Numbered from the stretch's first letter, positions 16,956-35,869 are shown. The stretch: DNA of 64,000 nucleotides from an uncultured Clostridia bacterium (GCA_947590905.1 CANQCU010000003.1:18968-82967); one strand, 5' to 3'. The notes: generated from the sequence alone by a model not told the origin. Numbers and translations are program-made.

Positions 16956-16965
16956 TTATTAGGAG

Positions 16966-20489: not shown

Positions 20490-21125
20490 ATGGAAGTAAA
20501 ATATATATTATTACTGATTATTGTAATTTTAATAGGTATTATTATTTATTTGATAGAACAATTAAAAAAAGCAAAAGAAGAAAATAATATTTTAATGAGC
20601 AATATTAAAATGGCAAAAAATAGAGAAGAAGATTATAGGCGTGAAAACGAAAGACTTAATTGGACTATGGAAATCAAAAAACGAACTAAAAAAGAAACAC
20701 CCAAAGAGCAATATACATCAAATAAGAATTTGAAAGTTCTTATTGGAGATTACAATAAATTAACGGTCACTAATACTAATTTAGTAATAGAAAGTTTAGG
20801 ATTAGAAACTGATATAGTTCAAAGTGGAGAAGATATAATAGAAAGAATACAAGATGGTGCAAAATATGATGTTATTATAACTAATAATGTTTATAGGGGA
20901 CATTTAGGAGGTCCAAATGTTTTGGACAAGTTAAAAGCAATGGAAAATTTTGATACACCTGTGATAATCTTAACAGTGGATCAAGATAAAAGAGATTATT
21001 ATATAAATAGTTGTGGATTTGATGAATATATACCAAAGCCATTAGATATAGAAAAAGCACAAACTGCATTAAAAAATGTAATACCTGGATTAAAGTTTAA
21101 AAAAATTAAAAGCAATAAATCATAG
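20490..21125 (+). CDS. membrane-anchored receiver-like (CheY-fold) protein with no output domain; Asn replaces the phospho-acceptor Asp
   Basis: N-terminal TM helix, then a charged coiled coil. The receiver-like block has the conserved Thr (PVIILTVD) and Lys (EYIPKPLD). At the expected acceptor position the sequence is DVIITNNVY, so Asp is replaced by Asn. Confidence 0.4.
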   Translation: MEVKYILLLIIVILIGIIIYLIEQLKKAKEENNILMSNIKMAKNREEDYRRENERLNWTMEIKKRTKKETPKEQYTSNKNLKVLIGDYNKLTVTNTNLVIESLGLETDIVQSGEDIIERIQDGAKYDVIITNNVYRGHLGGPNVLDKLKAMENFDTPVIILTVDQDKRDYYINSCGFDEYIPKPLDIEKAQTALKNVIPGLKFKKIKSNKS

Positions 21126-21130
21126 TTGGT

Positions 21131-21577
21131 TTATTGCTTTTTTCTACCTAGCAATTCATCAATAGAAAATGGTTGATATATTTTAGTAAGATTATATAAA
21201 AATGCAGTAGGTATAAGATTATGAGCATTTTCATAATGAGCATAGGCTGCTTGTGTTGTATTTATTTTTTTAGATACTTGTAGTTGTGTTAAATTATGCT
21301 TTTTTCTAATGAGGCGTAAGTTTTTGCCGATTAAGTTCAAGTCTATTTTTAAAGGTAAATAATCTATATTGTTGTTTGTAAGACCAAATAAATAATCTAA
21401 ACTAAAATTATAATGATTTGCATAATCAATTAGTCTTCTTAAAGGTATTGTGTCTTTGCCAGTCTCCCAACCTGACACAGTTGAAAAATTAACATTAAAT
21501 AAATCAGCAATATCTTTTTGTTTAATGTCTAACATCTCTCTACTTTCTTTTAGATTTTTGATTCGCATTGTACTCAC
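21131..21577 (-). CDS. XRE-family regulator with two tandem helix-turn-helix domains, divergent from brxA
   Basis: HTH 1 is IKQKDIADLFNVNFSTVSGWETG. HTH 2 is LIRKKHNLTQLQVSKKINTTQAAYAHYENA. Confidence 0.6.
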   Translation of the reverse strand: MSTMRIKNLKESREMLDIKQKDIADLFNVNFSTVSGWETGKDTIPLRRLIDYANHYNFSLDYLFGLTNNNIDYLPLKIDLNLIGKNLRLIRKKHNLTQLQVSKKINTTQAAYAHYENAHNLIPTAFLYNLTKIYQPFSIDELLGRKKQ

Positions 21578-21620
21578 CCGAATATTATTATTTCATTAAC
21601 TTGTGCTTATATTATTTTTC

Positions 21621-21639
21621 TGGGGAAAATAGACTATTT
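21621..21639 (+). repeat. copy 2 of the motif TGGGGAAAATAGACTATTT, in the brxA promoter region; a partial third copy TAGACTATTTTTC lies at 21705-21716
   Basis: Same sequence and same placement as copy 1: immediately 3' of a TATATTAT -10-like box. Confidence 0.5.
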
Positions 21640-21790
21640 TTTTTAAAAAATAATTCTAAAAGTGAGAATAATTGTTCATATAAAATAAAATTCTTGCGAA
21701 TAATTAGACTATTTTTCTTCAAATGCTTTTCAATTATAAACATATATGTTATAATTATTTTGTTGAAATTTCTTGAAAAAAGGAGGAAAT

Positions 21791-22387
21791 ATGGAAGATT
21801 ATAGTGCCAAATTAACAGGTGAGCCATTTTTATATAACGAAACAAAAATTATTGGTAGATACTTGTTAGATGGAGAAAACGAAGCAGAATTAAAAAGGCG
21901 AAATATTGAAGAAAATCTTATTAAACATAAAAAAACAGGTAGTGTTAAAAGAGTTAATGCTCCTATATTTAGAAGACTTAATGTAATGAGTAAAGAAATG
22001 CTTGAAGAATTTGTTTGTTCGGATATTGAAACAAGTAAATGTATCTTGTTATATGCCATAATGAAAACTGATAGACTTGTAAAAGATTTTATATTTGAAG
22101 TCTATAAAGATAAGTTGTTTATGAGAAAAGAATATATTGAAAAGTTTGATATAGATAACTGGTATGAAGAAAAATGTATATTAAGTGAAACACTTAAAAA
22201 TAGAAGTGAAACAACAACTGCAAAATTAAAACAAGTAATAATGAAAATATTGCAAGATTCAGGATTAGTAATAAAAGAAAAAGATAGATTTAAAATAGTT
22301 AGACCTTTATTAAAAGAAAAATATATAAATATGCTTGATAAAAATGGAGATTTAGAATATGCGAAAGCAATAGGAGGGTTGTTATGA
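21791..22387 (+). CDS. brxA: BREX protein BrxA (DUF1819)
   Basis: About 198 aa. The N-terminus YSAKLTGEPFLYNETKIIGRYLL matches the conserved BrxA start YSARLT.G.F. First gene of a canonical type 1 BREX order. RBS AAGGAGG lies 8 nt upstream of the ATG at 21791. Confidence 0.75.
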   Translation: MEDYSAKLTGEPFLYNETKIIGRYLLDGENEAELKRRNIEENLIKHKKTGSVKRVNAPIFRRLNVMSKEMLEEFVCSDIETSKCILLYAIMKTDRLVKDFIFEVYKDKLFMRKEYIEKFDIDNWYEEKCILSETLKNRSETTTAKLKQVIMKILQDSGLVIKEKDRFKIVRPLLKEKYINMLDKNGDLEYAKAIGGLL

Positions 22388-22959
22388 TGAAAAGCATAAA
22401 TACTAGATTACAAGAAATGACAAATAAATTAAGTAGTAATGAGTTGTTTGAATCAAATGGTCTAGGAAATGAAATTAACTTCCATATATTTGACTATGAT
22501 CCAGAAGATGAATATATAGTAAGAGAATATTTAGAAAATTACTTACTGAAAAAAAGTAAACTGAATATAAAAGTATTTGATATATACGATATTATTATTG
22601 AAATATTAAAAGAAAAAGGTTTTCTTGAAAAATGCTTTGACTATGAAAATAAAAAAGGAGCAAAAGCCTTAAATAGTCTTATTTCAAAAACTGTGGGAAT
22701 TGGCTCTGGAAATGATTTGATAATGAAAAAAATAAAAAGCGAAATAGAGCCTAATCAAATAATTTTAATAACAGGAATTGGGAAGTGTTATGGAATTGTA
22801 AGAGGACATACAATATTGAATAACTTACATAGTGTAGTTACGAATAATCCTTTGATAATGTTCTATCCAGGAACATACAATGGACAAAGTTTTCAACTAT
22901 TTGATAAATTAGAAAATGATAATTATTATAGAGCATTCCAATTTGTAGGAAGAAAGTAG
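22384..22959 (+). CDS. brxB: BREX protein BrxB (DUF1788)
   Basis: 191 aa. Its start ATGATGA overlaps the brxA stop. Size and position fit BrxB. Confidence 0.6.
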   Translation: MMKSINTRLQEMTNKLSSNELFESNGLGNEINFHIFDYDPEDEYIVREYLENYLLKKSKLNIKVFDIYDIIIEILKEKGFLEKCFDYENKKGAKALNSLISKTVGIGSGNDLIMKKIKSEIEPNQIILITGIGKCYGIVRGHTILNNLHSVVTNNPLIMFYPGTYNGQSFQLFDKLENDNYYRAFQFVGRK

Positions 22960-22969
22960 GAGGAGTAAA

Positions 22970-25900
22970 ATGGATGATTTAAAGAAAATATATGCAAAAG
23001 ATATTGAAAGAGAAATACAAGGAGTTATTAAAGTTGATGATGAAAGTTATATCAGTCAAGAATTAGAAGAATATGTAGTTACAGAAGAATTATTAAAACA
23101 TTTTAATAGTTTCTTTGACGCATATAATGCAGGTATAAATGGAAATACTGAAAAAATGGGAGTATGGATTTCTGGTTTCTTCGGTAGTGGTAAATCTCAC
23201 TTTTTAAAAATCATATCTTATTTATTAGAAAATAAAGTAGTTAATGGTAAGGCAGCAGTTGATTATTTTGATGACAAAATAGAAGATAAAATGCTACTTG
23301 CAGATATAAAAAGAGCAGGAAGTATTCCAACAGATGTAATCTTATTTAATATTGATTCTAAAACAGAAAATAGTAATGGAACAAAAGATAGAATACTTGA
23401 TGTTTTTGAAAAAGTATTTAATGAAAAAATGGGATTATCTATTACACCATTTGTTGCAGAAATTGAAAGACATATTATTAGTCAAGGTAAGTATGAAGAA
23501 TTTAAAAAAGCATTTGAAAGTAAAGCAAATAACTCTTGGGAAGAAATGCGTGATGGTATTCAATTTGTAGAAGATGAATTTGCAAGTGCTTATGCCGAAG
23601 TATTAGGTAAATCAGAAGAAGAAGCAAGAAATATTGTTGAAAGAACAGAAAAAAATTATACTTTATCAGTAGAAAAATTAGCAGAAAGAATAAGAGATTA
23701 CATTAAATCAAAAGGAAATAATCATCATATTGTATTCCTAGTAGATGAAATAGGACAATACATTGGAGATGATAGAAGTTTAATGTTAAATCTTCAAACA
23801 ATAGTAGAAGATTTAGGACTTGAATGTGGTGGAAAGGCTTGGGTAATCGTTACAAGTCAAGAAGCAATAGATGATGTCGTAAAAGTACAAGGAAATGACT
23901 TTTCTAAAATTCAAGGAAGATTTGATACTAAACTTTCTTTATCAAGTTCTGATATAGATGAAGTAATTAAGAAAAGAATATTAGACAAAACAGAAGAAGC
24001 AACTACAAGTTTAAAAATGATTTATGAAAAAGAAGAATCTATTATTAGAAACTTATTAACATTTAAGAATGCAACATATCAAAAAGTATATGAAGATAGT
24101 ACAGATTTTGCAGAAACATATCCATTTATTCCTTATCAATTTAAGTTATTACAAGATGTATTTACTGATATAAGAAAACACGGTTATGCAGGAAAACACT
24201 TATCAAGTGGAGAAAGATCACTACTAGGAGCATTCCAAGAAACTGCCAAAAGATTTGGAGATAGTGAAATAGGTACAATTATACCTTTCTATGCTTTCTA
24301 CGATACTATTGAACAATTCCTAGAACATCAAGTAAAAATAGTTATTAAAACTGCTATGGATACAGTTCAAAGTGGAGAATTAAAAGATATAGATGTAGAA
24401 GTATTAAAAATGTTATTTATGCTAAAAAACATTAAAGAAATACCTGCTAATATTGATAATCTATCTACTTTATATGTATCTAATATAAAAGATGACAAGA
24501 TTTCTATTAAAAAGGAAATAGCAGATTCTTTAAGAAGATTAGAGGCACAAACTTTAATTCAAAGAAACAATGATGAATATAAATTTTTAACTGATGAAGA
24601 ACAAGAAATAAATAGAGAAATAAAACAAATATTTATTGACCAAAATAGAAAAATTGATTATTTAAAAAGAATTGTTTTTGATTATATACTTACAGATAAT
24701 AAGTTTACTTATAAGAATAAACAATTCCCACTTACTAAATACATAGATAATATTAAATATTCACAAGAATATGAAATAGGTATTAGAGTAGTCACTTCAT
24801 CTCCTGAACAAGATGACACAGAAATCATTATGCAATCTGCAAGAGAAAATAAATATGTATTTGTTAAACTTGAAATATCTACTTTAATCTATGATGAAAT
24901 AACTAATTATTTACAAGTAGAAGAATATAGAAGAAGTAAAAGTGGAGTATTCCAAACACAACAAGTTGAAGATATTATAAGAGCAAAACAAAGAGAAATA
25001 GAAAAAGCAGAAGATATAATTAGAGAAAATATTAAAGAACAATTAAATGAAGCAGAAATTATTATTGCAGGAGATAGACAAAATATAAGTGCAAAAGAAG
25101 CAAAAGCAAGAGTAAATGAAGCATTAGAAATTCTAATCAATAACATATATACAAAATTCACATACATCAAACATAACTTTACTACACAAGACATTAGAGA
25201 GTTATTCCACGAAAATAGACAAAATATGTTAGGAAATGAAGTTGAATTTGTTAATCAAAAGGCTTATGACGCAATGAAAGAATATTGTGAAGAAAAAAAT
25301 GCTTTCAGTCTTCCTATGACAATTAGAACACTTTTACAAGACTTTGGAAATGCTCCTTACGGATTTTTAGATGAAGATATTTTATATATCTTAACTAGAT
25401 TATTAAAAGATGAAGTTGTATCTTTAATTTATAATAATGAAGTACAAAATATTACTTCCGAAGATACACTAACTAAAATATTAAAAAGAGATTATTATGA
25501 TAGAACAATAATAAAAATTAGACAAAAAATAGAGATAAACTTAATCAATGATTTAAAAGCCGTTGCAAGAAATGCTTTCAATGTAATCAATTTAAGAGAT
25601 GATGAAGATGGAATGGTTGAAGATTTTAAAGCAGAGTGTCTTCAAAGTACATTAAATAAATTAAATAAAATAGCAGGATACTATAATATTTCTGGAAGCA
25701 AATATCAATATCCTGGACAAGATGTAAAAGATGAAGCAACTAATTTAATGGAGAGATTATTAAAAATTAGAGATGTTGGAGAATTCTTTAAAGAAGTATC
25801 AAACTGTAAAGGAGTATTGGAAGAATTATCTCCAAAAATAGAAATGGTATTAGATTTCTTTGATGGAACACAAAAAGAACAATTTGATGAAGCCAGAAAA

Positions 25901-26497
25901 ATAATTATTATTTATGATAATAATAAGGACTACGCTGATAGAACAGAAGAACTTTCAAATGTAGTTGATAAAATTGTTTCTATATTAACATCTAGTGAGC
26001 CATATAGTGAAATACACGAACTACCAACATTAAGAAAAGACTTAATTGATTTACTTACACAAATGTATGATGTTAAATCAGAGCCAATTATTAAGATGAT
26101 AAATAATACTATTGAATATATTGAAAACGAAGTAAAACAAGCAGAAGTAGATGAAAACTTTGGAAAGAGATATATTGATACTTGCAAAAATGTTATTGAT
26201 ACATTAGAGCGTTCAAATGAATTAAAAGATATATTTGCACAACAAACTAGAATAGATCAATTAAAAGATAGTTTTATTACTGCATTAGAATATGAAAAGA
26301 GTAAGAAAAATGCTACTAACGAAGTAGGAGAAGTAATAGAAGAAAAAATTGTTAAGAGAACTATTATTAGAACTGATAGTTTAATGAATCGTACCTATGA
26401 AATAAATTCAAAAGAAGATATAGATAAATATGTAGAGGAGTTAAGAACTAAACTATTAAAAGAGTTTGAAAAGAATAATAACTTAACAATTAGATAG
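22970..26497 (+). CDS. brxC: BREX ATPase BrxC/PglY
   Basis: 1175 aa. Walker A motif GFFGSGKSHFLK near the N-terminus, as in BrxC. Large alpha-helical C-terminus. Confidence 0.8.
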   Translation: MDDLKKIYAKDIEREIQGVIKVDDESYISQELEEYVVTEELLKHFNSFFDAYNAGINGNTEKMGVWISGFFGSGKSHFLKIISYLLENKVVNGKAAVDYFDDKIEDKMLLADIKRAGSIPTDVILFNIDSKTENSNGTKDRILDVFEKVFNEKMGLSITPFVAEIERHIISQGKYEEFKKAFESKANNSWEEMRDGIQFVEDEFASAYAEVLGKSEEEARNIVERTEKNYTLSVEKLAERIRDYIKSKGNNHHIVFLVDEIGQYIGDDRSLMLNLQTIVEDLGLECGGKAWVIVTSQEAIDDVVKVQGNDFSKIQGRFDTKLSLSSSDIDEVIKKRILDKTEEATTSLKMIYEKEESIIRNLLTFKNATYQKVYEDSTDFAETYPFIPYQFKLLQDVFTDIRKHGYAGKHLSSGERSLLGAFQETAKRFGDSEIGTIIPFYAFYDTIEQFLEHQVKIVIKTAMDTVQSGELKDIDVEVLKMLFMLKNIKEIPANIDNLSTLYVSNIKDDKISIKKEIADSLRRLEAQTLIQRNNDEYKFLTDEEQEINREIKQIFIDQNRKIDYLKRIVFDYILTDNKFTYKNKQFPLTKYIDNIKYSQEYEIGIRVVTSSPEQDDTEIIMQSARENKYVFVKLEISTLIYDEITNYLQVEEYRRSKSGVFQTQQVEDIIRAKQREIEKAEDIIRENIKEQLNEAEIIIAGDRQNISAKEAKARVNEALEILINNIYTKFTYIKHNFTTQDIRELFHENRQNMLGNEVEFVNQKAYDAMKEYCEEKNAFSLPMTIRTLLQDFGNAPYGFLDEDILYILTRLLKDEVVSLIYNNEVQNITSEDTLTKILKRDYYDRTIIKIRQKIEINLINDLKAVARNAFNVINLRDDEDGMVEDFKAECLQSTLNKLNKIAGYYNISGSKYQYPGQDVKDEATNLMERLLKIRDVGEFFKEVSNCKGVLEELSPKIEMVLDFFDGTQKEQFDEARKIIIIYDNNKDYADRTEELSNVVDKIVSILTSSEPYSEIHELPTLRKDLIDLLTQMYDVKSEPIIKMINNTIEYIENEVKQAEVDENFGKRYIDTCKNVIDTLERSNELKDIFAQQTRIDQLKDSFITALEYEKSKKNATNEVGEVIEEKIVKRTIIRTDSLMNRTYEINSKEDIDKYVEELRTKLLKEFEKNNNLTIR

Positions 26498-26514
26498 TAA
26501 AAGGAGATAAGCAG

Positions 26515-27168
26515 ATGAATAAAAAAGAAAAATTACAAAAATTGATAGAAAAAGGAAAAGAGTTTATAGGGAAGAATTTAACACACAATGATTCACATTT
26601 TTGTGCTTGGAATGCCTCTGTAATTAGGTTTATTGAAAATGAATTTGGAGTTAATTCAACAGATGCAAAGCGATTAAAAGGAAGACTTTATCAACCATCT
26701 GCTTATGCACCTGGGGCAGATAATCAAAGTTTATTTGTAAAATATTTTGAAAGAGATTTAAGTAAAACATTAGAAGAATTAGAAATGATTTTTGATGATA
26801 TAGAAGAAAATAATTTTCAAGGAGAAAAGAATTTTCAAGAAGAAAAGAAAAATATTGGAGGAACAACAATTAATTTTAACATTGATAACAGCAATACGAA
26901 TACAAATACTACAAACATCAATATTTCATTTGAAAAATTAAAAGGAGATATTGAGAATGATTCATCTATTGTAAATGAGGATAAAATAGAAATATTAAAT
27001 AAATTAGATGAAATTAAAAATATACAATTAAGCAACATTCCTAAAAAGGAAAAGTGGATAACAATAAAGAAAATACTTATATTTTTACTAGATAAAGGAG
27101 TAGATTTTGCTATTGCATATTTACCACAAATATTATTACTACTTAAAATGGGAGGTATAAATGGATAA
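26515..27168 (+). CDS. uncharacterised 217-aa protein embedded in the BREX operon between brxC and pglX, with a C-terminal hydrophobic helix
   Basis: RBS aaggagataagcagatg. Its stop overlaps the pglX start (translational coupling). Asn/Thr-rich low-complexity middle. No recognised domain. Confidence 0.4.
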   Translation: MNKKEKLQKLIEKGKEFIGKNLTHNDSHFCAWNASVIRFIENEFGVNSTDAKRLKGRLYQPSAYAPGADNQSLFVKYFERDLSKTLEELEMIFDDIEENNFQGEKNFQEEKKNIGGTTINFNIDNSNTNTNTTNINISFEKLKGDIENDSSIVNEDKIEILNKLDEIKNIQLSNIPKKEKWITIKKILIFLLDKGVDFAIAYLPQILLLLKMGGING

Positions 27169-30100
27169 AACAGTATTAAAAAAATTTGCTATTGAATCAA
27201 GACAAGATTTAATGGAAAAAATTAAAAACAAAATAAAAACTTTCTATGTTGATGAAGTGTTTTCAAATGAACAAAAAGGTGAATTATATGTTTTATCTAA
27301 CGAAAAACACACATTAAGTCTAACAAATGAAGAATATAAGAAAAGAGAACTTTTAATTAAGAGAATAAAAGAATTATCATTAGAACAAGTAATAGAGGAA
27401 GCAGCGTATACTTGGTTTAATAGAATTGTTGCCATTCGTTATATGGAAATAAACGATATTCTTCCTTTAACAAAAGAAAATCAATCACTAGGAATAAGAG
27501 TATTATCATCAAAAGATAATACTCCCGATCCAGAAATATTAAAGTTTACTAATCTAACTAATCCAGATTTAGATATTGACTTTAAAAAAGAAATATATTC
27601 AGAATTAAAAGATGAAAATGATAAGTTTAAATATGTTTTATTATTAGTTTGCAAAAAATTAGGAAAAGTTATTCCACAAGTATTTGATGGTATAACTGAT
27701 TATATTGATATTTTAATTCCAGACAATTTACTTAATGATACTGGATTTATAACGAAAGTTATAAAAGATGTTCCAGAAGATAATTATAATCAGGTAGAAA
27801 TTATAGGATGGTTATATCAATATTATAATCAAATAGAAAAAGATAGAGTTATAACTTCTAAAAAGGCATATAAGAAAACAGAAATTCCTTATGCTACTCA
27901 ATTATTTACGCCAGACTGGATTGTAAAGTATATGGTTGAAAATTCGTTAGGAAGATATTGGATAGAACATAATGGAGAGAGGACATTATATCCAAGTAAT
28001 AATCTACATCAATCTTCTTCAATTATGGAAAATTGGGAACATTTTATAAAAGAGAATATAGAATACCAAGATAACAAATTAGATCCAACTAAAATTACTT
28101 TTATTGATCCTTGTTGTGGAAGTGGGCATATTTTAGTTTATGCTTTTGAAATATTTTATCAAATTTATTTAAAATCAGGGTATAACAAAAATGATATACC
28201 AGAGTTAATATTAAAAAATAATTTATATGGGTTGGATATTGATGATAGAGCAGGACAATTATCTATATTATCAGTATTATTAAAAGCAAGAGAATATGAT
28301 AAATATATATTTAATAAAGAAATTGTAAAAAAATTAAACATTATAAGCATACAAGAATCTAATACAATAAATCCAGAAATTTTAAATAATTTGAATGATA
28401 TAAATATGAAAGAAGACGCTAAAAAATTACTTGAAACTTTTAGTAATGCAAAAGAAATAGGCTCTTTAATTGTACCAAGTTGTTTAGATTACGAAAAATT
28501 AGAACAAGAAATATATAAAGATGATACAATTTTTGGAATTGAGTTAAAAGATAAATTATTGCCTTTAATTAAGATAAATAAAATATTATCAACATCATAC
28601 GATATAGTAGTTACTAATCCACCATATATGGGCGAAAGGTATATGAGCCAAAACTTAAAAACTTTTATTAAAAAATATTATGAAGTAGGAAAAAACGATT
28701 TATTTTCTGCATTCATTTTAAGAATTATAGACTTCTGTAAAAAAGATGGCTTTTCAGGAATTATATCACCTTATGTTTGGTTTTTTATAAAAAGTTATAT
28801 AGATTTACGAAAAAAGGTTTTGCAAGAAATGACTTTTAAATCTTGTATTCAATTAGAATACAATGCCTTTGAAGTAGCGTGTGTTCCAGTTGCAACTTAT
28901 ATATTGAAGAAAAGCCATTCTATTGAAAAGGGAATCTATATAAAGTTATCAGATTTTAAAGGTGCTGATAATCAGGAGCCAAAATTTTTAGAAGCAATAC
29001 ATAATCAAGAGTGTAGTTATAAATATGTAAGGAATACAGATATATTTGAAAAAATACCAAATAATACTTTTGCTTATTGGATTGGAAATAATATGCTTGA
29101 AGTGTATGCAAAGTCATTGCCATTATCTAATTATGCTACTGCTTGTGTAGGATTACAAACAAGTGATAACAAAAGATTTTTGAGAGAATGGTATGAAGTT
29201 GATATAGAAAAAATTGGCTTTAATATTAAAAATATTGAAGAATCTATTAAAACTCATAATAAGTGGTTCCCTTATAACAAAGGTGGAGGATTTAGAAGAT
29301 GGTATGGTAATGTTTTAGAAGTAGTAAATTGGGAAAATGATGGTTTTGAAATAAGAAAATATAATGAATATTTAAATTCTTCAAGAAATTCTAATATTGG
29401 TATTGCAAATACTAAATATTACTTTAAAGAAAGTGGAACTTGGGGGCTTATTAGTTCAGCAGATTTTTCAGTAAGATATTCACCAGTAGGATATATATTT
29501 GATACAGCAGGATCATCTATTTTTAGCGAAGAAAATTTAAAATACTATATAGGATTATTAAATACTTCACTTGTAAAAGAATTGCTTTTAATTCAAAACC
29601 CAACTTTAAATTTTACACCTGGAAATGTTGCAAATTTGCCAGTAATTCTTCCTGAGGTAGAAATAAAAGATTGCATAGAGAAAATTGTTGATAAAAACAT
29701 AGAAATTTCAAAACAAGACTGGGATTCTTTTGAAACAAGTTGGGATTTTGTTAAGCACCCATTATTATTGGAGGCAAATTTAACACCTAAACAAATTCAA
29801 AAAGAAGAATCTAATGGATTTCAAGTATGTAATAACTTAGAAGAAGCATATAATCATTGGACTATAAGTTGTAATAATAGATTTAAGCAACTTAAAGAAA
29901 ATGAAGAAGAATTAAATCGCATTTTTATAGATATATATGGTTTGCAAAATGAATTAACACCAGAAGTAGAAGACAAAGATATAACTATAAGATTAGCAGA
30001 TAAGGAAAGAGATATAAAATCATTTATCAGTTATGCAGTTGGTTGTATGTTTGGTAGATATTCGTTAGATGAAGATGGACTAATTTATGCAGGTGGAGAT

Positions 30101-30721
30101 TTTGACATAAATAGATATAAATTATTTAAAGCAGATGTAGATAATGTTATTCCAATAACTGATCAAGCATACTTTGGTGATGACATTGTAGAGAGATTTA
30201 AAGATTTTTTAAGAGTTGCTTATGGAATGAATACTTTTAATGAGAATCTTGACTTTATTGCAGAAGCGTTAGGTAAGAAAGGTACAGAAACAAGTGAAGA
30301 CACTATAAGAAGATATTTCTTAAATGACTTTTATAATGACCATATTAAAACATATCAAAAACGACCTATATACTGGTTGTTTGATAGTGGCAAGAAAAAT
30401 GGATTTAAAGCACTTGTTTATATGCACAGATACAATGAAAATTTAGTACCAAAAGTAAGATTAGATTATTTACATAGAGTGCAAACAACTTATGAAAAAT
30501 TATTATCAGATGTTAATTATAGACTAACAACTGATTTATCAATGACAGATAAAAAAATAGCAGAAAATAGAAAAGCAGACTTAAATGCTAAACTACAAGA
30601 AATAAAAGAGTATGATGAAAAGATAGCACATATTGCTAATCAAAGAATTAGTATAGATTTAGATGATGGTGTTAAAGAAAATTATGAGAAGTTTAAAGAT
30701 ATACTAGCGAAAATAAAATAG
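27161..30721 (+). CDS. pglX: BREX N6-adenine DNA methyltransferase PglX
   Basis: 1186 aa. Catalytic NPPY motif (VVTNPPYMGERYM), with the SAM-binding region upstream of it. Position after brxC. Confidence 0.85.
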   Translation: MDKTVLKKFAIESRQDLMEKIKNKIKTFYVDEVFSNEQKGELYVLSNEKHTLSLTNEEYKKRELLIKRIKELSLEQVIEEAAYTWFNRIVAIRYMEINDILPLTKENQSLGIRVLSSKDNTPDPEILKFTNLTNPDLDIDFKKEIYSELKDENDKFKYVLLLVCKKLGKVIPQVFDGITDYIDILIPDNLLNDTGFITKVIKDVPEDNYNQVEIIGWLYQYYNQIEKDRVITSKKAYKKTEIPYATQLFTPDWIVKYMVENSLGRYWIEHNGERTLYPSNNLHQSSSIMENWEHFIKENIEYQDNKLDPTKITFIDPCCGSGHILVYAFEIFYQIYLKSGYNKNDIPELILKNNLYGLDIDDRAGQLSILSVLLKAREYDKYIFNKEIVKKLNIISIQESNTINPEILNNLNDINMKEDAKKLLETFSNAKEIGSLIVPSCLDYEKLEQEIYKDDTIFGIELKDKLLPLIKINKILSTSYDIVVTNPPYMGERYMSQNLKTFIKKYYEVGKNDLFSAFILRIIDFCKKDGFSGIISPYVWFFIKSYIDLRKKVLQEMTFKSCIQLEYNAFEVACVPVATYILKKSHSIEKGIYIKLSDFKGADNQEPKFLEAIHNQECSYKYVRNTDIFEKIPNNTFAYWIGNNMLEVYAKSLPLSNYATACVGLQTSDNKRFLREWYEVDIEKIGFNIKNIEESIKTHNKWFPYNKGGGFRRWYGNVLEVVNWENDGFEIRKYNEYLNSSRNSNIGIANTKYYFKESGTWGLISSADFSVRYSPVGYIFDTAGSSIFSEENLKYYIGLLNTSLVKELLLIQNPTLNFTPGNVANLPVILPEVEIKDCIEKIVDKNIEISKQDWDSFETSWDFVKHPLLLEANLTPKQIQKEESNGFQVCNNLEEAYNHWTISCNNRFKQLKENEEELNRIFIDIYGLQNELTPEVEDKDITIRLADKERDIKSFISYAVGCMFGRYSLDEDGLIYAGGDFDINRYKLFKADVDNVIPITDQAYFGDDIVERFKDFLRVAYGMNTFNENLDFIAEALGKKGTETSEDTIRRYFLNDFYNDHIKTYQKRPIYWLFDSGKKNGFKALVYMHRYNENLVPKVRLDYLHRVQTTYEKLLSDVNYRLTTDLSMTDKKIAENRKADLNAKLQEIKEYDEKIAHIANQRISIDLDDGVKENYEKFKDILAKIK

Positions 30722-30732
30722 GAGGATAGATT

Positions 30733-33276
30733 ATGTTTGATGAAGTATTACAACTATTAAATGATACTTTAAATGGTGCTTTTTCAAGAGATACAGAAAG
30801 AAAAAGAACTAGAAAAATTATATTCTGGTATGATTCTAAACAAGAATATCTTGATTTTATCAATGAACTAGAATTAGACAATACAGAAATATTAAAGTAT
30901 GATAACAATAGTTTTTGGATTAGATACCATATAGAAAAAGAAGAACTTAATAAGAATATTATTATCTATCTTCCTTTTGAAAGAAAAAAAGGTATAGATA
31001 ATGACTTATTAGATTTAGAAACTGCAAATAGTGATTTATTGTTTAATCCAGATTCAACAACAATGAGATTAAAGAATTTAGGTTTAACAGATGATGAAAG
31101 AAATATAATTAAAAAATATTCAAAATTCTTTGGAAATAAGAAAAGAGAAACGGAATTTAAAAACTTTGATATTGATGAAAAGAATGCAAATAATATAGAT
31201 TTAATTATTACAGCAATAATGCTTAATATTAAGTCTATCAATGAAGATGATATTTTAAAGGAAATTATTAGATTTTATTTTGAAGATGAGAAAAAGTATG
31301 AAGAATTATTTAAGTATGGAAGCGAAGAATTTATATTAGAATTGTTTAATAATACTTTTGGATCAGATGTAAAATCTTATAAAGATTTGCCAGAAATATA
31401 TAAATCATTAGTATTTACTTATTTCGCAACAAGTTTAAAAGAGCCAAAGAAAGCAAGTAGATATAGTAAATATATACTAACTAAAAAAACTACTAATATA
31501 TATGTTTTCTTAAATAATTTAATGAGAGATAAGACAATGAAATCTTATTTTGAACACTTATCAAAAGAAATAGAAAAAGAATTTGGAATAAATGAATTAT
31601 TACAATCAATGGATATAGATGATTACATTTCAAGTGACGCTTTTGAAAGCATAGATAGATGTGTAATAAAATACATTGTTGATAAATTATTTAATGGAAT
31701 AGGAGAATATGATTTATATTCTAATTATATTGATACAAGAGAAAGTAAATATTGGTTTGATAAATTAGAAAACGAGTATAACTTATTAAAAGTTTCAATA
31801 ACATTCTTTGAAAAGATTAAAGAAATAGAAGACAAAATAAAAATAGAAGATATTGATTTATTTGCTAAAAATTATACAGAAATATTTAGCGAGATAGATA
31901 CATTATATAGAAAAGTTTACTTTTACTATGACAGTATAGAAGACAAAGATATATTTATCAATTTAAAGAACAAAATAGAGAATATCTATGTTAATGACTT
32001 TATGAGCGAATTATCTATTAAATGGAGTGATACGATAGAAAATATGAATAAATATGATTCTAATCGTATGACATTACAAAAAGATTTTTACAAAAATTAT
32101 ATTAAGCCATTTAACGATAAGAAAGATAGAATTATTGTTATAATTTCAGACGCTTTTAGATATGAATGTGCAAAAGAATTAAATAATAGACTAAAAGTAT
32201 TTGCTAGTAAATCCGATATAAAATATATGCAAGGACTTGTTCCATCATATACTAAACTTGGTATGGCAGCATTACTACCAAATAAGGAATTAGAAAGAGT
32301 TAAAGATAGTGATGATATTTTAGTTGATGGACAACCTTCTGCCAGTCTTAATGATAGAGAGTTAATATTACAAAAAGAGAATCCAGATTCTATTGCTATA
32401 AAGTATGATGACTTATATGAAATGACTAAACTTGAATGGAAAAAAGTTTTTTCTGGTAAAAAGATAGTTTATATTTATCACGATACCATAGATAATGCAG
32501 GAGAACATAACGAGAATACAATATTCACTGCTTGTGATAAAGCAATAAATGAATTAGAAAAGTTAATAAAAGATTTACATACTACTTTTAGTGGAATAAA
32601 TGCTTTTATAACTGCCGATCACGGATTCTTTTATAAAAGAGGAAAAGTAGAAAGCTATGAAAAAACAAGTAAGACTACAAATGCTACAAAACAAAAAACT
32701 AGATATTCTTATTCAGATAGTATTTCAAATGATGAGGGAATTTTATCTATCAATCTTGATTATGTATTTGGTAGTAATAGTGGGTATGTAAATATTCCAA
32801 AAGGTAATATTATATTTGCTAGACAAGGAACAGGAATAAATTATGTTCACGGTGGCATACTTCCACAAGAAATAATTGTTCCAGTTATAGACTTTAAATC
32901 AACAAGAACAAGTGATGATAGTAAAAAGGTTGGTATTACTTATAGTGGACTTACTGCTAAAATTACAAATGCTATTACTTATTTAGAGTTTTTACAAGAT
33001 AATAACATAGATGAAAATAACAAGCCTTGTAGATACCTATTACATTTTGAAGATGAAGATGGAAATAGAGTTTCTGATGAATGTACTATTATAGCCAATT
33101 ATGAAAATACAGAAGTAAAAGATAGATTCTTTAAAGAAAAGTTTGTATTTAAAAATATTGAATATGATAGAACAAAACCTTATTATTTAGTAATTATAGA
33201 TGAAGAAACTGGTATAGAAGCAAATAGAGTCAAATTCTATATTGATATTGCCATTGTAAATAATTTTGATTTTTAG
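30733..33276 (+). CDS. pglZ: BREX alkaline-phosphatase-superfamily protein PglZ
   Basis: 847 aa. PglZ-domain signature (IVIISDAFRYECAKEL). Position after pglX. Confidence 0.75.
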   Translation: MFDEVLQLLNDTLNGAFSRDTERKRTRKIIFWYDSKQEYLDFINELELDNTEILKYDNNSFWIRYHIEKEELNKNIIIYLPFERKKGIDNDLLDLETANSDLLFNPDSTTMRLKNLGLTDDERNIIKKYSKFFGNKKRETEFKNFDIDEKNANNIDLIITAIMLNIKSINEDDILKEIIRFYFEDEKKYEELFKYGSEEFILELFNNTFGSDVKSYKDLPEIYKSLVFTYFATSLKEPKKASRYSKYILTKKTTNIYVFLNNLMRDKTMKSYFEHLSKEIEKEFGINELLQSMDIDDYISSDAFESIDRCVIKYIVDKLFNGIGEYDLYSNYIDTRESKYWFDKLENEYNLLKVSITFFEKIKEIEDKIKIEDIDLFAKNYTEIFSEIDTLYRKVYFYYDSIEDKDIFINLKNKIENIYVNDFMSELSIKWSDTIENMNKYDSNRMTLQKDFYKNYIKPFNDKKDRIIVIISDAFRYECAKELNNRLKVFASKSDIKYMQGLVPSYTKLGMAALLPNKELERVKDSDDILVDGQPSASLNDRELILQKENPDSIAIKYDDLYEMTKLEWKKVFSGKKIVYIYHDTIDNAGEHNENTIFTACDKAINELEKLIKDLHTTFSGINAFITADHGFFYKRGKVESYEKTSKTTNATKQKTRYSYSDSISNDEGILSINLDYVFGSNSGYVNIPKGNIIFARQGTGINYVHGGILPQEIIVPVIDFKSTRTSDDSKKVGITYSGLTAKITNAITYLEFLQDNNIDENNKPCRYLLHFEDEDGNRVSDECTIIANYENTEVKDRFFKEKFVFKNIEYDRTKPYYLVIIDEETGIEANRVKFYIDIAIVNNFDF

Positions 33277-33287
33277 GAGGTGCAGTA

Positions 33288-35318
33288 ATGGAAGAACTTA
33301 ATGAAAAGTTAAATAAATATTTTGCAGGAAAAGTTGTAAGAAAAGATTTAACTAAAAAAATTAAAGAGGGAGCAAATGTACCTGTCTATGTTCTTGAATA
33401 CTTACTTGGTATGTACTGTGCTACTAATGATGAAAATGCAATTCTTGATGGTGTAGAAACAGTTAAGAAGATATTAGCAGATAACTTTGTAAGACCAGAT
33501 GAAGCAGAAAAAATAAAATCTAAAATAAAAGAAAAAGGTATTTATACAATTATAGATAAAGTAACGGTAAGACTTAATGAGAAATTAGATTTATACCAAG
33601 CAGAGTTTTCTAATTTAGGAATAAAAGACGCTTCTATAAGTGAAGAAATTGTTAATAAATATGAAAAACTTTTAGTTGGTGGTATATGGTGTATTATTAA
33701 AGTTAGTTATAACTATGATGACCAAGATAGACATAAAATGCCTTTTAAAGTAGCAAGTCTTGATCCAATACAACTTCCAAATATGGATTTAACTGGCTTG
33801 TTTGATGGAAGAAAACATTTTACAAAAGAAGAATGGATTGATATTTTAGTTCGTTCTATGGGAATAGAGCCATCAAAACTTACTGAAATACAAAAGTGGC
33901 ATTTTCTTGAAAGAGCAGTACCACTTGTAGAGAATAATTATAATCTATGTGAACTAGGTCCGAGAGGAACTGGTAAGTCACATATCTATAAAGAAATATC
34001 TCCAAATAGTATTTTAGTATCTGGTGGACAAACTACTGTTGCTAATTTGTTCTATAATATGGGACAAAAGAAAATAGGTTTAGTAGGTATGTGGGACTGT
34101 GTTGCTTTTGATGAAGTAGCAGGTATTACATTTAAAGATAAAGATGGAATCCAAATAATGAAAGATTATATGGCTTCTGGATCATTTGCAAGAGGAAAAG
34201 AAGAAAAAAATGCAAATGCTTCTATGGTATTTGTAGGGAATATAAATCAAAGTGTTGAAGTATTATTAAAAACATCACATTTATTTGAGCCATTCCCAAA
34301 AGAGATGGCAAATGATTCTGCTTTCTTTGACAGAATGCACTTTTATCTTCCTGGTTGGGAAATTCCTAAAATGCGACCAGAGTTAATAACAGATGAATAT
34401 GGATTTATTACAGACTATTTATCAGAATATTTTAGAGAAATGAGAAAAAGGACTTTTTCAGATTCACTAGATAAATACTTTAAATTAGGAAATAACTTAA
34501 ATCAAAGAGATGTTATAGCAGTTAGAAAGACAGTTTCTGGTTTAGTTAAATTGTTATATCCAAATGGAGAATATAGTAAAGAAGAACTTGAAGAAATACT
34601 TGCCTATGCTTTGGTAGGAAGAAGACGAGTAAAAGAACAATTAAAGAAAATAGGTGGTATGGAGTTCTATGATGTTCACTTTTCTTATATTGATTTAGAA
34701 AGTATGGAAGAAAAATTTATTTCAGTACCAGAAAATGGTGGTGGAAAACTTATTCCAGAGGGAATGCTTAAAGCAGGGCATACTTACTTTATAGGTAGAG
34801 GAACATCTGGAATGATAGGAACATATAAAATTGAAGTAGAATCTCCAAGTGGACACGGTAAATTTTCAGTTTCTGGCGTAGGTAATGATAGAGAAACAAA
34901 AGAAGCATTAAATACAGCATTTAATTATTTTAGAGCAAACAAAAAAAGTATAAGTGCTAGTATTCAAGTAGATAATGTTGATTATTTACTACATATTGAA
35001 GATTTACAAGGAGTAGGTGCTTCAAAAGATATATCTCTTGCTTCATTTGTTGCAATGTGTAGTAGTGCTTTGAAGAAACCTATACAAGGTAGTTTAGTCA
35101 TATTAGGTAGTATGAGTATAGGTGGAACAATTAGTAAAGTAGAAGAAATAGCCAATACTTTACAAGTATGTTTTGATTCAGGTGCTAAAAAAATATTACT
35201 ACCAATGTCTTCTGCTAGTGATATATCAAGTGTACCTAGTGACTTATTTTCAAAGTTTAACATAGCATTTTATAATGATCCAGAAGACGCAGTATATAAA
35301 GCATTAGGTATAGAATAA
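33288..35318 (+). CDS. brxL: BREX Lon-like protease BrxL
   Basis: 676 aa. Conserved BrxL N-terminus (VVRKDLTKKIKEGANVPVYVLEYLLGMYC). AAA/Lon-like Walker A (GPRGTGKSH). Lon-protease-like C-terminal domain. Confidence 0.75.
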   Translation: MEELNEKLNKYFAGKVVRKDLTKKIKEGANVPVYVLEYLLGMYCATNDENAILDGVETVKKILADNFVRPDEAEKIKSKIKEKGIYTIIDKVTVRLNEKLDLYQAEFSNLGIKDASISEEIVNKYEKLLVGGIWCIIKVSYNYDDQDRHKMPFKVASLDPIQLPNMDLTGLFDGRKHFTKEEWIDILVRSMGIEPSKLTEIQKWHFLERAVPLVENNYNLCELGPRGTGKSHIYKEISPNSILVSGGQTTVANLFYNMGQKKIGLVGMWDCVAFDEVAGITFKDKDGIQIMKDYMASGSFARGKEEKNANASMVFVGNINQSVEVLLKTSHLFEPFPKEMANDSAFFDRMHFYLPGWEIPKMRPELITDEYGFITDYLSEYFREMRKRTFSDSLDKYFKLGNNLNQRDVIAVRKTVSGLVKLLYPNGEYSKEELEEILAYALVGRRRVKEQLKKIGGMEFYDVHFSYIDLESMEEKFISVPENGGGKLIPEGMLKAGHTYFIGRGTSGMIGTYKIEVESPSGHGKFSVSGVGNDRETKEALNTAFNYFRANKKSISASIQVDNVDYLLHIEDLQGVGASKDISLASFVAMCSSALKKPIQGSLVILGSMSIGGTISKVEEIANTLQVCFDSGAKKILLPMSSASDISSVPSDLFSKFNIAFYNDPEDAVYKALGIE

Positions 35319-35732
35319 GTTTTAACAAATAATATGGAGAGGTAATATTGATAAAACTTTAATTATATAATGAAATGAACGCACAAATTGTAAGTATTTG
35401 TGTGTTTTTTTAATTTTTTATATCAGTACAACACAATCCGACATTTTTTTCGCAAACATTGTCGTACAATGTATTTTAGTAACATTGCCTACGGCTATGT
35501 AATTAAAGAATAATAAAGGGGTAGTGATAAGAAATAGAAAGGTTGTGGTGTAGTTTATATTCTATTTCAAATAATACATTACAGGCTTAATTTGTAGTAA
35601 TAGATGATACAAAGTTTTTAGTAGTATTTTGCTTTTGTATTTATAGGCAATGTCTTGTTGGGAGAGATTGTCTATGAGAGTAAGAAAATACTATGTAATT
35701 TGCATAGAAAAATTAAGAATCATTGAACGAGT

Positions 35733-35782
35733 CAAATTCAACTCTATTAGCAGAGGAGGATTTGACTCTTTTTTTTATAGTG
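35733..35782 (+). terminator. intrinsic terminator/attenuator upstream of the sigma-like gene
   Basis: Hairpin GAGTCAAAT ... ATTTGACTC followed by TTTTTTTTAT. Confidence 0.4.
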
Positions 35783-35869
35783 TAAGTAAACATTTAAGTA
35801 ACGGGTGTAGAGGTCCTCCTTTTATCAATTTGTTTTTAAAAAAATTCAAATTGATAGGAGGAAAGAAAG

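What the first reader, a model, noticed from the sequence alone, without database searches (positions are those of the whole stretch)
26515..27168. Unannotated 217-aa gene embedded inside the BREX operon between brxC and pglX
Canonical type 1 BREX has pglX directly after brxC. Here an ORF with a good RBS sits in the gap, and its stop overlaps the pglX start codon (translational coupling). It has an Asn/Thr-rich low-complexity centre (NTNTNTTNIN) and a C-terminal hydrophobic helix. I recognise no family. It could be an accessory BREX subunit, a regulator of PglX, or an embedded second defence/anti-defence gene.
Basis: seen in the sequence. Interest (0 to 1): 0.65.

Follow-up and report, generated by a model that had tools for sequence, protein, structure and literature searches.

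The report
Swappable defence gene inside BREX operon
The 217-aa gene between brxC and pglX is real and conserved, but it is not a BREX subunit: it is one of at least ten interchangeable cargo cassettes in this slot, and probably an untested single-gene anti-phage protein that joins a known candidate sensor domain to an unnamed, widespread C-terminal module.

Summary
ORF 26515-27168 (+, 217 aa) lies inside a complete type 1 BREX operon. It has its own AAGGAG ribosome-binding site, and its stop codon overlaps the pglX ATG by 8 nt. Its last codons (GGGAGG, 27150-27155) are the pglX ribosome-binding site.

It is a real gene. There are 39 close homologues, 666 clusters of remote ones, and dN/dS is 0.19-0.57.

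It is not a BREX component. Among 38 related BREX loci, the brxC|pglX junction is empty in 4 and holds this gene in 10. In 24 it holds other cassettes: CBASS, OLD-like nuclease, Ppl, PDC-S06, PDC-M14 and unknowns. A 79%-identical copy sits outside any BREX locus, on a small integrative element next to a restriction-modification system.

The N-terminal helical domain (aa 1-~100) is the N-domain of PADLOC candidate PDC-S35, where it is fused to a CAP12/Pycsar-type TIR domain. Elsewhere it is fused to a REase domain. Here that position holds an unnamed ~100-aa module: an alternating-Asn stretch, then a four-helix bundle ending in a hydrophobic hairpin with near-invariant K-W and D-K-G-x-D motifs.

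The best reading is an embedded sensor-effector abortive-infection-type protein. The effector chemistry (membrane damage?) is inferred, not shown. I rate it a new variant of a known, untested kind, of moderate interest.

The parts
26501..26506 (+). Shine-Dalgarno sequence AAGGAG of the 217-aa gene, 8 nt before its ATG
   Evidence: Read directly from the sequence.
26515..27168 (+). The 217-aa gene ('X'): embedded single-gene defence candidate with a sensor-linker-effector layout
   Evidence: ORF. 39 homologues. 666 clusters of remote homologues. dN/dS 0.19-0.57.
26515..26808 (+). N-terminal helical domain (aa 1-98), the same domain as the N-terminus of PADLOC candidate PDC-S35
   Evidence: PADLOC PDC-S35 matches aa 1-111 to model positions 1-109 of 264, E=1.1e-11, and 15 of 18 family members match. 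pLDDT is about 90, with four helices. It is 28% identical over 106 aa to P0183 (N-domain plus TIR, a full-length PDC-S35) and 43% over 88 aa to P0140 (N-domain plus REase_DpnII-MboI).
26872..26922 (+). Alternating-Asn stretch (aa 120-136). It is conserved across the wider C-module family, not just a low-complexity linker
   Evidence: Column frequencies of Asn are 0.33-0.81 at positions aligned with aa 120, 122, 125, 127, 129, 131, 134 and 136 in 148 proteins. AlphaFold gives pLDDT below 50 here.
26929..27150 (+). C-terminal four-helix module (aa 139-212) with near-invariant K180-W181, D193-K194-G195-x-D197 and P204, ending in a hydrophobic hairpin. Putative effector
   Evidence: Conservation table. 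Alignment A1 invariants. AlphaFold pLDDT 80-90. In most remote homologues only this module matches, always at the extreme C-terminus and after unrelated N-termini.
27150..27155 (+). GGGAGG, the Shine-Dalgarno sequence of pglX, lying inside the last codons of X (M-G-G-I-N-G)
   Evidence: Sequence. All BREX-embedded copies end in codons containing GGAGG (tails GGING, GGM, GGI), whereas the non-BREX copy ends GQIKGI.
27161..27168 (+). ATGGATAA: the pglX start codon overlapping the X stop codon
   Evidence: Unrelated cassettes in the same slot use the same overlap.
22970..26497 (+). brxC, the upstream boundary of the cargo slot
   Evidence: Pfam and PADLOC BrxC. The 3' end is nearly identical in 25 loci up to the stop codon, and the sequences diverge immediately after it.
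27161..30721 (+). pglX, the downstream boundary of the cargo slot
   Evidence: PADLOC PglX, Pfam Eco57I and MmeI_Mtase. The conserved 5' end ATGGATAAAGC... is shared by all the loci.
21773..35318 (+). The type 1 BREX operon (brxA, brxB, brxC, X, pglX, pglZ, brxL) that carries the gene
   Evidence: The best promoter-like site is at 21727-21755. The only terminator-like sites found in the scanned 21000-36500 region lie downstream of brxL (35377-35407 and 36388-36410), and none lies inside the operon.

Best explanation
X is an autonomous single-gene defence candidate carried as cargo inside a type 1 BREX operon. It is not part of the BREX machinery.

Shown: in this lineage of low-GC gut Firmicutes BREX loci, the interval between the brxC stop codon and the pglX ribosome-binding site is a precise cassette slot. 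The slot is empty in some loci. In others it holds X or one of at least nine other cassettes, including CBASS, OLD-type nuclease, Ppl, PDC-S06 and PDC-M14.

Inferred: the conserved brxC 3' end and pglX 5' end act as homology arms for cassette exchange.

Shown: X has a modular layout. Its N-terminal four-helix domain is fused in other proteins to a CAP12/Pycsar-type TIR domain (that fusion is PDC-S35) or to a DpnII/MboI-type REase domain. In X that position holds a ~100-aa C-terminal module. The same module ends hundreds of other small proteins that have unrelated N-termini.

Inferred: the N-domain senses or regulates, and the C-module is the toxic effector. The C-module consists of an alternating-Asn stretch, a polybasic K-K-x-K-W motif and a terminal hydrophobic helical hairpin packed in a small four-helix bundle. 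The most likely action is therefore infection-triggered self-association and membrane damage, that is, abortive infection backing up BREX. The trigger is unknown.

Shown: X is co-transcribed with BREX, and its last codons supply the pglX ribosome-binding site.
For: Slot and cargo:
- Of 38 related BREX loci found with the BrxC C-terminus, 4 have a 14-15 nt brxC-pglX gap and 10 carry X. The other 24 carry PDC-S06 (5), CBASS cyclase+2TM/Cap15 (5), PDC-M14A/B (4), CBASS SMODS+4TM (2), OLD-like AAA_15-TOPRIM (2), Ppl (2), or unknowns (4).
- Sequences are near-identical up to the brxC stop, diverge immediately after it, and converge again at the pglX ribosome-binding site and ATG.
- L001-L004 carry two stacked cassettes separated by brxC' and pglZ' remnants.

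Independence from BREX:
- P0027 is 79% identical to the BREX-embedded P0031. It lies on an integrase/AAA_25 element next to an HTH gene and an Eco47II R-M system.
- The same element occurs in three more MAGs with different cargo.
- X identity to the window does not follow BrxC identity. L016: BrxC 86%, X 33%. L005: BrxC 73%, X 51%.

Modularity:
- P0155 and P0183 combine the N-domain with PF10137 TIR and are full-length PDC-S35 (E=2.5e-81 and 5.9e-89). P0140 combines the N-domain with PF18742 REase.
- Most of the 666 remote clusters match only the C-module, at the C-terminus.
- P0036 combines a different N-domain type with a C-module 69% identical to the window's.

Defence neighbourhoods of non-BREX relatives: an Abi_C protein (L022), ResIII+RE_endonuc (L071), and Eco29kI R-M+Vsr+nSTAND (L072).

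Operon: there is no internal terminator.

Literature:
- PDC systems were defined from genes embedded in BREX, DISARM and type I R-M loci and are untested (bioRxiv 10.1101/2024.01.29.577857).
- Genes embedded in BREX are common, and most of them are unidentified (PMC11341690).
Against: - No member of this family, nor PDC-S35 itself, has been tested experimentally.
- The hydrophobic tail is not a canonical transmembrane helix. The Kyte-Doolittle 19-residue maximum is 1.38 in X, the family median is 1.43, and only 17% of members reach 1.6.
- AlphaFold packs the tail into a soluble-looking four-helix bundle.
- One non-BREX relative (L073-75) lies among ordinary small-enzyme genes rather than defence genes.
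- Most full-length close homologues do sit exactly at brxC|pglX, so some functional interplay with BREX cannot be excluded.
- The loci surveyed were not dereplicated by strain.
Confidence: 0.6

Rival explanations
1. X is a lineage-specific BREX accessory protein or PglX regulator. It would be translationally coupled to pglX, for example to set PglX levels, chaperone it or gate its activity.
For: The stop codon overlaps the pglX start, and the pglX ribosome-binding site lies inside X. X-family members sit at exactly this position in many BREX loci down to 33% identity. X is the commonest single occupant of the slot, in 10 of 38 loci.
Against: In 28 of 38 sister loci the gene is absent, and the slot is either empty or filled with unrelated, self-contained defence systems that use the same overlap with pglX. 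A 79%-identical copy and many C-module relatives occur without any BREX gene within 8-10 kb. The N-domain is shared with TIR and REase effector fusions. X identity does not track BrxC or PglX identity.
Confidence: 0.1
2. X is a toxin-like or exclusion gene that serves the mobile element rather than defending against phage. Possible roles are post-segregational stabilisation of the ICE or BREX island, or exclusion of competing plasmids and ICEs.
For: The BREX island is cargo of a Tn916-like ICE: relaxase, coupling protein, VirB4-like ATPase, sigma region 4 protein and integrase. The non-BREX copies are backbone genes of a small integrative element. No cognate antitoxin or trigger is evident.
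Against: The alternative occupants of the slot are recognised anti-phage systems such as CBASS, OLD and Ppl. The neighbours elsewhere are R-M and Abi genes. The N-domain belongs to a defence-candidate family. A lone toxin with no antitoxin is not a stable addiction module.
Confidence: 0.15
3. The ORF is a non-functional or decaying remnant, or spacer DNA that happens to stay open in a 25% GC genome.
For: The Asn/Lys/Ile-rich composition is typical of AT-rich DNA. Two related copies (L066, L067) carry frameshifts.
Against: Homologues are full-length and intact in dozens of contigs. dN/dS is 0.19-0.57. Several residues are near-invariant across 148 diverse proteins. AlphaFold domains are confident. 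The frameshifted copies come from Mb-scale contigs, and the frameshifts recur along the gene, which may reflect assembly indel errors rather than decay (inference).
Confidence: 0.03

Closest known systems
PADLOC phage-defence candidate PDC-S35 (Payne et al. 2024, bioRxiv 10.1101/2024.01.29.577857)
   Same: The N-terminal ~100-aa helical domain is the same (E=1.1e-11; 28% identity to the full-length member P0183). Both are single-gene candidates found embedded in BREX, DISARM or type I R-M loci. Both have a small sensor-plus-effector layout.
   Different: PDC-S35 proper carries a CAP12/Pycsar-type TIR domain (PF10137) after the N-domain. X has no TIR domain and carries an unrelated Asn-stretch plus four-helix module instead. 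Only 109 of the 264 model positions are matched. PDC-S35 itself is untested.
Defence systems embedded in type 1 BREX operons: PARIS in Salmonella D23580 BREX and BrxU in E. fergusonii pEFER (PMC11341690; Payne et al. 2024)
   Same: X is a self-contained second gene nested in the BREX operon, in the same orientation and co-transcribed with it. The presumed role is a back-up layer.
   Different: There is no sequence or domain relationship: X has no ABC ATPase/TOPRIM and no DUF262/DUF1524. X is a single small protein with no recognisable enzymatic domain.
PDC-M14 (A+B), another candidate occupying the same brxC|pglX slot
   Same: It occupies the same slot in sister loci. The C-terminal half of PDC-M14B shows a similar order of features: an N-rich alternating stretch, an EIID-x-I-E-x-I-Q-EEL helix and a KKG+IK motif. 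There are weak recurrent HMM matches: 10 of 18 X-family members, best E=2.6e-5.
   Different: The profile-profile comparison is not significant (hhalign E=0.015, probability 2.9%). M14B has a different terminal helix and needs a partner gene, M14A.
Small membrane-spanning effectors of CBASS and Pycsar (2TM, 4TM, Cap15)
   Same: They occupy the same kind of position, as a small non-enzymatic alternative to TIR effectors, and they have a hydrophobic C-terminal hairpin. CBASS operons with 2TM or 4TM effectors fill the same BREX slot in sister loci.
   Different: None of the PADLOC or Pfam TM-effector models matches X. The hydrophobic segments are too short or too polar for canonical transmembrane helices. 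X has no cyclase partner and no nucleotide-binding domain.

Membership tests
Type 1 BREX (the host locus) | brxA, brxB, brxC, pglX, pglZ and brxL present in that order on one strand | tested here: met
   Pfam BrxA, BrxB, BrxC domains, Eco57I/MmeI_Mtase, PglZ and BrxL_N/BrxL_ATPase/Lon_C. PADLOC full-length matches to each.
BREX core or accessory subunit (claim for X) | Present in essentially all loci of the lineage and co-diverging with the core genes | tested here: not met
   X is present in 10 of 38 related loci. The slot is empty in 4 and holds other cassettes in 24. X identity (33-64%) does not follow BrxC identity (67-88%).
BREX core or accessory subunit (claim for X) | Not found apart from BREX genes | tested here: not met
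   P0027, L008 and L017-L019 lie on an integrative element with no BREX hit within 8-10 kb. C-module relatives L020-25, L071 and L072 are also outside BREX.
PDC-S35 (PADLOC candidate) | N-terminal helical domain (model positions ~1-110) | tested here: met
   E=1.1e-11, aa 1-111 matched to model positions 1-109 of 264. 15 of 18 family members match.
PDC-S35 (PADLOC candidate) | C-terminal CAP12/Pycsar-type TIR domain (PF10137), with a full-length model match | tested here: not met
   X gives no Pfam hit, and only the N-terminal 109 model positions align. Genuine members P0155 and P0183 match the full length and carry PF10137.
PDC-S35 (PADLOC candidate) | Demonstrated anti-phage activity | not testable with these tools
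   The 145 PDC systems are described as untested candidates.
BrxR (WYL/wHTH regulator) or BrxU (GmrSD, DUF262/DUF1524) | The characteristic domains are detectable | tested here: not met
   No Pfam, NCBIfam or PADLOC match to these families.
Transmembrane effector proteins (CBASS/Pycsar 2TM/4TM type) | At least one canonical transmembrane helix, or a match to the effector models | tested here: inconclusive
   No PADLOC effector match. Kyte-Doolittle 19-residue maximum is 1.38 in X; the family median is 1.43, and 17% reach 1.6; the 15-residue window median is 1.84. No dedicated TM predictor was available.
Phage-encoded anti-defence protein | Homologues encoded in phage genomes | tested here: not met
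   tblastn against 50,697 phage records gave no match at E<=0.01. PHROGs best E is 0.33.

The most novel reading that the evidence does not exclude
The ~100-aa C-terminal module is a previously undescribed, widespread effector domain: 666 clusters at 50% identity, with no match for it in any library or fold search run here. In this reading its conserved alternating-Asn strand works as a self-templating, Asn-ladder or amyloid-like oligomerisation element. On activation it would gather the K-W/D-K-G-x-D helical hairpins into a membrane lesion. That would be a single-chain bacterial analogue of the HeLo/HET-S or Bell/BASS logic, here plugged onto interchangeable sensor domains and carried as cargo by BREX.
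Probability: 0.12. Interest if true: 0.75.

Novelty: new variant of a known kind. Interest (0 to 1): 0.45.

Why it matters
The result changes what the finding is about. This is not a missing BREX subunit. It is a clean example of a precise cassette slot inside a BREX operon, bounded by the brxC stop codon and the pglX ribosome-binding site, through which a gut-Firmicute BREX lineage exchanges second-line defences.

Three practical points follow:
- X is a small, single-gene candidate that can be tested directly.
- Its N-domain links three effector types (TIR, REase and the new module). This gives a natural domain-swap experiment to find what the N-domain senses.
- The unnamed C-terminal module is abundant in metagenomes and matched nothing in the libraries and fold searches used here, so characterising one member would annotate hundreds of protein clusters.

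Anyone deleting X must keep nucleotides 27150-27160. Otherwise pglX loses its ribosome-binding site and the phenotype will be misread as a BREX requirement for X.

Tried and rejected
- Pfam, NCBIfam and PHROGs scans of X gave nothing significant.
- PDB sequence search with the family profile gave only noise, E>=0.039.
- Foldseek against PDB with the full-length model gave a best E of 2.2.
- The afdb50 fold library was unavailable.
- tblastn of X against the plasmid and phage collections gave no match.
- A full-text search for 'PDC-S35' found no paper, and the supplementary tables of Payne et al. held here do not show that label because the tables are cut.
- A word-indexed homology search with the C-module profile returned only short fragments and added nothing.
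- The hhalign comparison of X with PDC-M14B was not significant. I report the resemblance only as something noticed.
- A HEPN-like catalytic reading of the N-domain was considered and dropped. Inspection of the sequences shows no R-x4-6-H motif, and R38 is not conserved in the PDC-S35 members.
- A compositional-island signal was looked for and not found. GC is 22-31% across the BREX operon, and X (23-26%) is not distinct from its neighbours.
- A canonical transmembrane-helix reading of the tail is not supported by hydropathy.

Full report
**1. Observation**

- An AAGGAG motif (26501-26506) lies 8 nt upstream of the start codon. brxC ends at 26497.
- The TAA stop (27166-27168) overlaps the pglX ATG (27161) in the string ATGGATAA.
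- The flanking genes are an unambiguous type 1 BREX operon: brxA 21773-22387, brxB 22384-22959, brxC 22970-26497, pglX 27161-30721, pglZ 30733-33276 and brxL 33288-35318. Each gives strong Pfam and full-length PADLOC matches.
- The best sigma-70-like site in the region lies just upstream of brxA (21727-21755). The only terminator-like sites lie downstream of brxL (35377-35407 and 36388-36410). The gene is therefore most simply part of one brxA-to-brxL transcript.
- The whole island is cargo of a Tn916-like integrative conjugative element: relaxase 6255-7607, coupling protein 9455-11263, VirB4-like ATPase 14622-16955, sigma region 4 protein 35870-36346 and integrase 37794-39074.

**2. It is a real, conserved gene**
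- A word-indexed search found 39 homologues, mostly 214-219 aa, at 33-69% identity over the full length.
- A profile search of 1.84 billion representative proteins found 666 clusters at E<=1e-3 and 216 at E<=1e-10.
- Pairwise dN/dS among close copies is 0.19-0.57. This is purifying selection, but fairly relaxed.
- AlphaFold with the family alignment gives three parts. There is a confident N-terminal helical domain (aa 1-98, pLDDT about 90). There is an unstructured Asn/Thr-rich segment (aa 99-134, pLDDT below 50). There is a four-helix C-terminal domain (aa 139-212, pLDDT about 80-90).

**3. Genomic context: a cargo slot, not a BREX component**

I looked up six diverse homologues.
- Five lie exactly between brxC and pglX. 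These are P0007, P0022, P0031, P0034 and P0038, the last at only 33% identity.
- The sixth, P0027, is 79% identical to the BREX-embedded P0031. It lies on a small integrative element (integrase, AAA_25 protein, small ORF, then X and an HTH gene). It sits next to an Eco47II restriction-modification system and has no BREX gene within 10 kb.
- The same element backbone occurs in three further MAGs with different cargo. Integrase is 95% identical, the AAA_25 protein 91% and the HTH protein 86-96%.

I then surveyed the junction without reference to X. I searched metagenome contigs with the C-terminal 399 aa of BrxC. Thirty-eight loci contained both the brxC end and the pglX start.

| Slot content | Loci |
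|---|---|
| Empty (14-15 nt gap, the canonical arrangement) | 4 |
| X (one with extra genes; two frameshifted in Mb-scale contigs) | 10 |
| PDC-S06 (AAA_13 ATPase) | 5 |
| CBASS cyclase + Cap15-type 2TM effector | 5 |
| PDC-M14A/B | 4 |
| CBASS SMODS cyclase + 4TM effector | 2 |
| OLD-like AAA_15-TOPRIM protein | 2 |
| Ppl-like 943-aa protein | 2 |
| Unassigned genes | 4 |

Cassettes were clustered by blastp, and one representative of each cluster was annotated.

The boundaries are sharp.
- Every locus shares a near-identical brxC 3' end up to the stop codon.
- The sequences diverge from the next base.
- They converge again at the GGAGG ribosome-binding site and the conserved ATGGATAAAGC... 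start of pglX.
- Several unrelated cassettes end with the same 8-nt ATGGATAA overlap.
- In X the final codons (M-G-G-I-N-G; GGGAGG at 27150-27155) are themselves the pglX ribosome-binding site. All BREX-embedded copies end in GG-containing tails (GGING, GGM, GGI). The non-BREX copy ends GQIKGI.

Two further observations fit cassette exchange.
- In L001-L004 an X-RhuM cassette and a PDC-M14 cassette are stacked. They are separated by remnants of pglZ (aa 1-44) and brxC (aa 1102-1175). This is the scar expected if cassettes are exchanged by recombination between BREX loci.
- X identity to the window copy does not follow BrxC identity:

| Locus | BrxC identity | X identity |
|---|---|---|
| L001 | 88% | 64% |
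| L016 | 86% | 33% |
| L011 | 84% | 45% |
| L005 | 73% | 51% |

Together these results reject the 'BREX accessory subunit' and 'PglX regulator' readings. They support the 'embedded second defence gene' reading.

**4. What the protein is made of**

*N-terminal domain.*
- PADLOC model PDC-S35 matches aa 1-111, but only to model positions 1-109 of 264 (E=1.1e-11). Fifteen of 18 family members match in the same way.
- The profile search showed what full PDC-S35 proteins look like. P0155 and P0183 match the model end to end (E=2.5e-81 and 5.9e-89). They consist of this N-domain followed by a CAP12/Pycsar-type TIR domain, PF10137.
- A third architecture, P0140, joins the same N-domain (43% identical to X over 88 aa) to a REase_DpnII-MboI domain, PF18742. 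PADLOC also recognises that domain as an Argonaute-associated 'Helical-REase' effector.
- P0053 has the N-domain, an extra middle region and the X-type C-module.

*C-terminal module.*
- Most of the 666 remote clusters match only profile positions ~105-209. The match is always at the extreme C-terminus of proteins of 180-330 aa whose N-termini are unrelated and give no significant Pfam match.
- P0036 shows N/C shuffling within the close family. It has an N-domain of the P0038 type and a C-module 69% identical to the window's.
- An N-domain paired with alternative known effectors, and a C-module paired with many alternative N-domains, is the standard signature of a sensor-effector conflict protein. 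By position, the C-module is the effector. This step is an inference.

**5. The C-module**

In an alignment of 148 proteins the module has the following features.
- It begins with a stretch in which Asn recurs mostly at alternate positions (aa 120, 122, 125, 127, 129, 131, 134, 136). Asn frequency at these positions is 0.33-0.81, and hydrophobic or small polar residues lie between them.
- F139, I146 and L152 follow, then an acidic amphipathic helix (E159-I-L-x-K-x-x-E-I-x-x-I170).
- Next comes a polybasic motif with near-invariant K180 (0.98) and W181 (0.99), and K185.
- It ends in a helix-turn-helix, I-L-x-[FW]-L-x-D193-K194-G195-x-D197-x-x-I-x-x-L-P204-x-I-L, with K194 at 0.97, D197 at 0.94 and P204 at 0.92.

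The hydrophobic segments are short.
- The best 19-residue Kyte-Doolittle window in X scores 1.38.
- The family median is 1.43, and only 17% of members reach 1.6. The 15-residue median is 1.84.
- AlphaFold folds aa 139-212 into a compact four-helix bundle with the hydrophobic hairpin packed inside.

I therefore treat 'membrane-active effector released from a soluble bundle, possibly after Asn-strand-mediated self-association' as the most plausible mechanism. It is explicitly inferred, and I would put it at roughly one in three. The trigger is unknown.

**6. Defence association outside BREX**

Non-BREX relatives sit next to:
- an Eco47II R-M system (L008);
- an Abi_C-domain protein, a NUDIX protein, an MBL-fold protein and a serine recombinase (L022);
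- a ResIII helicase and an RE_endonuc protein on a conjugative element (L071);
- an Eco29kI R-M system with Vsr, and an nSTAND NTPase (L072, Candidatus Limiplasma).

One relative (L073-75) lies among ordinary small-enzyme genes near a recombinase. No homologue was found in 50,697 phage records or 72,556 plasmid records. This argues against a phage anti-defence origin.

**7. Comparison with what is known**
- Embedding of defence genes inside BREX is established. PARIS lies within Salmonella D23580 BREX, and BrxU is associated with the pEFER BREX. About 7,000 of about 9,000 pglZ-pglX loci carry intervening genes, most of them unidentified (PMC11341690).
- Payne et al. used 'guilt by embedding' in BREX, DISARM and type I R-M loci to define 145 untested PDC candidates, including PDC-S35 (bioRxiv 10.1101/2024.01.29.577857).
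- A 2026 survey catalogued auxiliary nuclease effectors in BREX loci (PMC12839542). X has no nuclease domain.
- X is therefore a domain-swapped relative of an already listed but untested candidate, and it fails the full PDC-S35 membership test because it lacks the TIR domain.
- Its C-module matched no Pfam, NCBIfam or PHROGs family and, in PADLOC, gave only a weak partial match to PDC-M14B; the PDB sequence and fold searches were also uninformative.
- PDC-M14B, which occupies the same slot in sister loci, shows a weak, recurrent but statistically unconvincing resemblance to the C-module.

**8. Verdict**
- Novelty: a new variant of a known, candidate kind.
- Interest is moderate. The concept is known. 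The new elements are the sharply defined multi-cassette slot in this BREX lineage, the three-effector family built on one N-domain, and an abundant unnamed C-terminal module that is directly testable.

| Claim | Confidence |
|---|---|
| Autonomous embedded cargo rather than a BREX subunit | ~0.85 |
| It is a defence gene | ~0.65 |
| Membrane-damage mechanism | ~0.35 |

The combined statement carries the overall confidence of 0.6.

Noticed in passing
L001-L004, 10641-13299 (locus coordinates): Two cassettes are stacked between brxC and pglX: X plus a RhuM-family gene, then PDC-M14A/B. They are separated by a pglZ N-terminal remnant (aa 1-44, 66% identical) and a brxC C-terminal remnant (aa 1102-1175, 78% identical). 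This looks like a recombination scar from cassette exchange between BREX loci.
   Followed up: partly
window 20490-21577: A protein with two XRE-type HTH domains (21131-21577, minus strand) is divergent from brxA. Next to it is a response-regulator-receiver protein with an N-terminal hydrophobic segment (20490-21125). Both are conserved upstream of the BREX locus in L005/L006 (70% and 43% identical). They are a candidate BREX regulator pair unlike the WYL-type BrxR.
   Followed up: partly
window 6255-18609 and 35870-39074: The BREX island is cargo of a Tn916-like integrative conjugative element: MobA/VirD2 relaxase, T4SS coupling protein, VirB4/TraG-like ATPase, a sigma-70 region 4 protein and a tyrosine integrase with an Arm DNA-binding domain.
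   Followed up: partly
L011-L013, 14254-15060: A 268-aa SduA_C (Shedu nuclease-type) gene is embedded at a second BREX junction, between pglX and pglZ, in loci that also carry X at brxC|pglX.
   Followed up: no
L005, 18895-20648: An OLD-family AAA_15/TOPRIM gene lies directly downstream of brxL in a locus that carries X at the brxC|pglX slot.
   Followed up: no
L029 2304-3119 and relatives (alignment A2): The C-terminal half of PDC-M14B shows the same order of features as the X C-module: an alternating N-rich stretch, an acidic EIID..I..IQEEL helix, a KKG+IK motif and a terminal hydrophobic helix. HMM matches are weak but recurrent (best E=2.6e-5) and hhalign is non-significant (E=0.015).
   Followed up: partly
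L066 7190-7900 and L067 7211-7910: The X homologues in these two Mb-scale metagenome contigs are broken by several frameshifts. These are either assembly indel errors or genuine decay. BrxC matches there are also weaker than in the other loci (47-52%).
   Followed up: partly
L063 7191-8087, L068 296-1195, L032 7215-7855, L039 7222-7674: Four further occupants of the brxC|pglX slot gave no significant Pfam or PADLOC assignment or were not scanned. The 298/299-aa protein was scanned without result. The 75+137-aa pair and the 150-aa protein were not scanned. By their position they are additional unexamined defence candidates.
   Followed up: no
L017 9554-14581: On the small integrative element that carries the non-BREX copy of X, the cargo region after the HTH gene varies. 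It holds an Eco47II R-M system plus an ASCH protein in L008. In L017 it holds a 611-aa DUF4379 zinc-finger/NUMOD1 protein and a 779-aa unknown. X and the HTH gene stay constant.
   Followed up: partly
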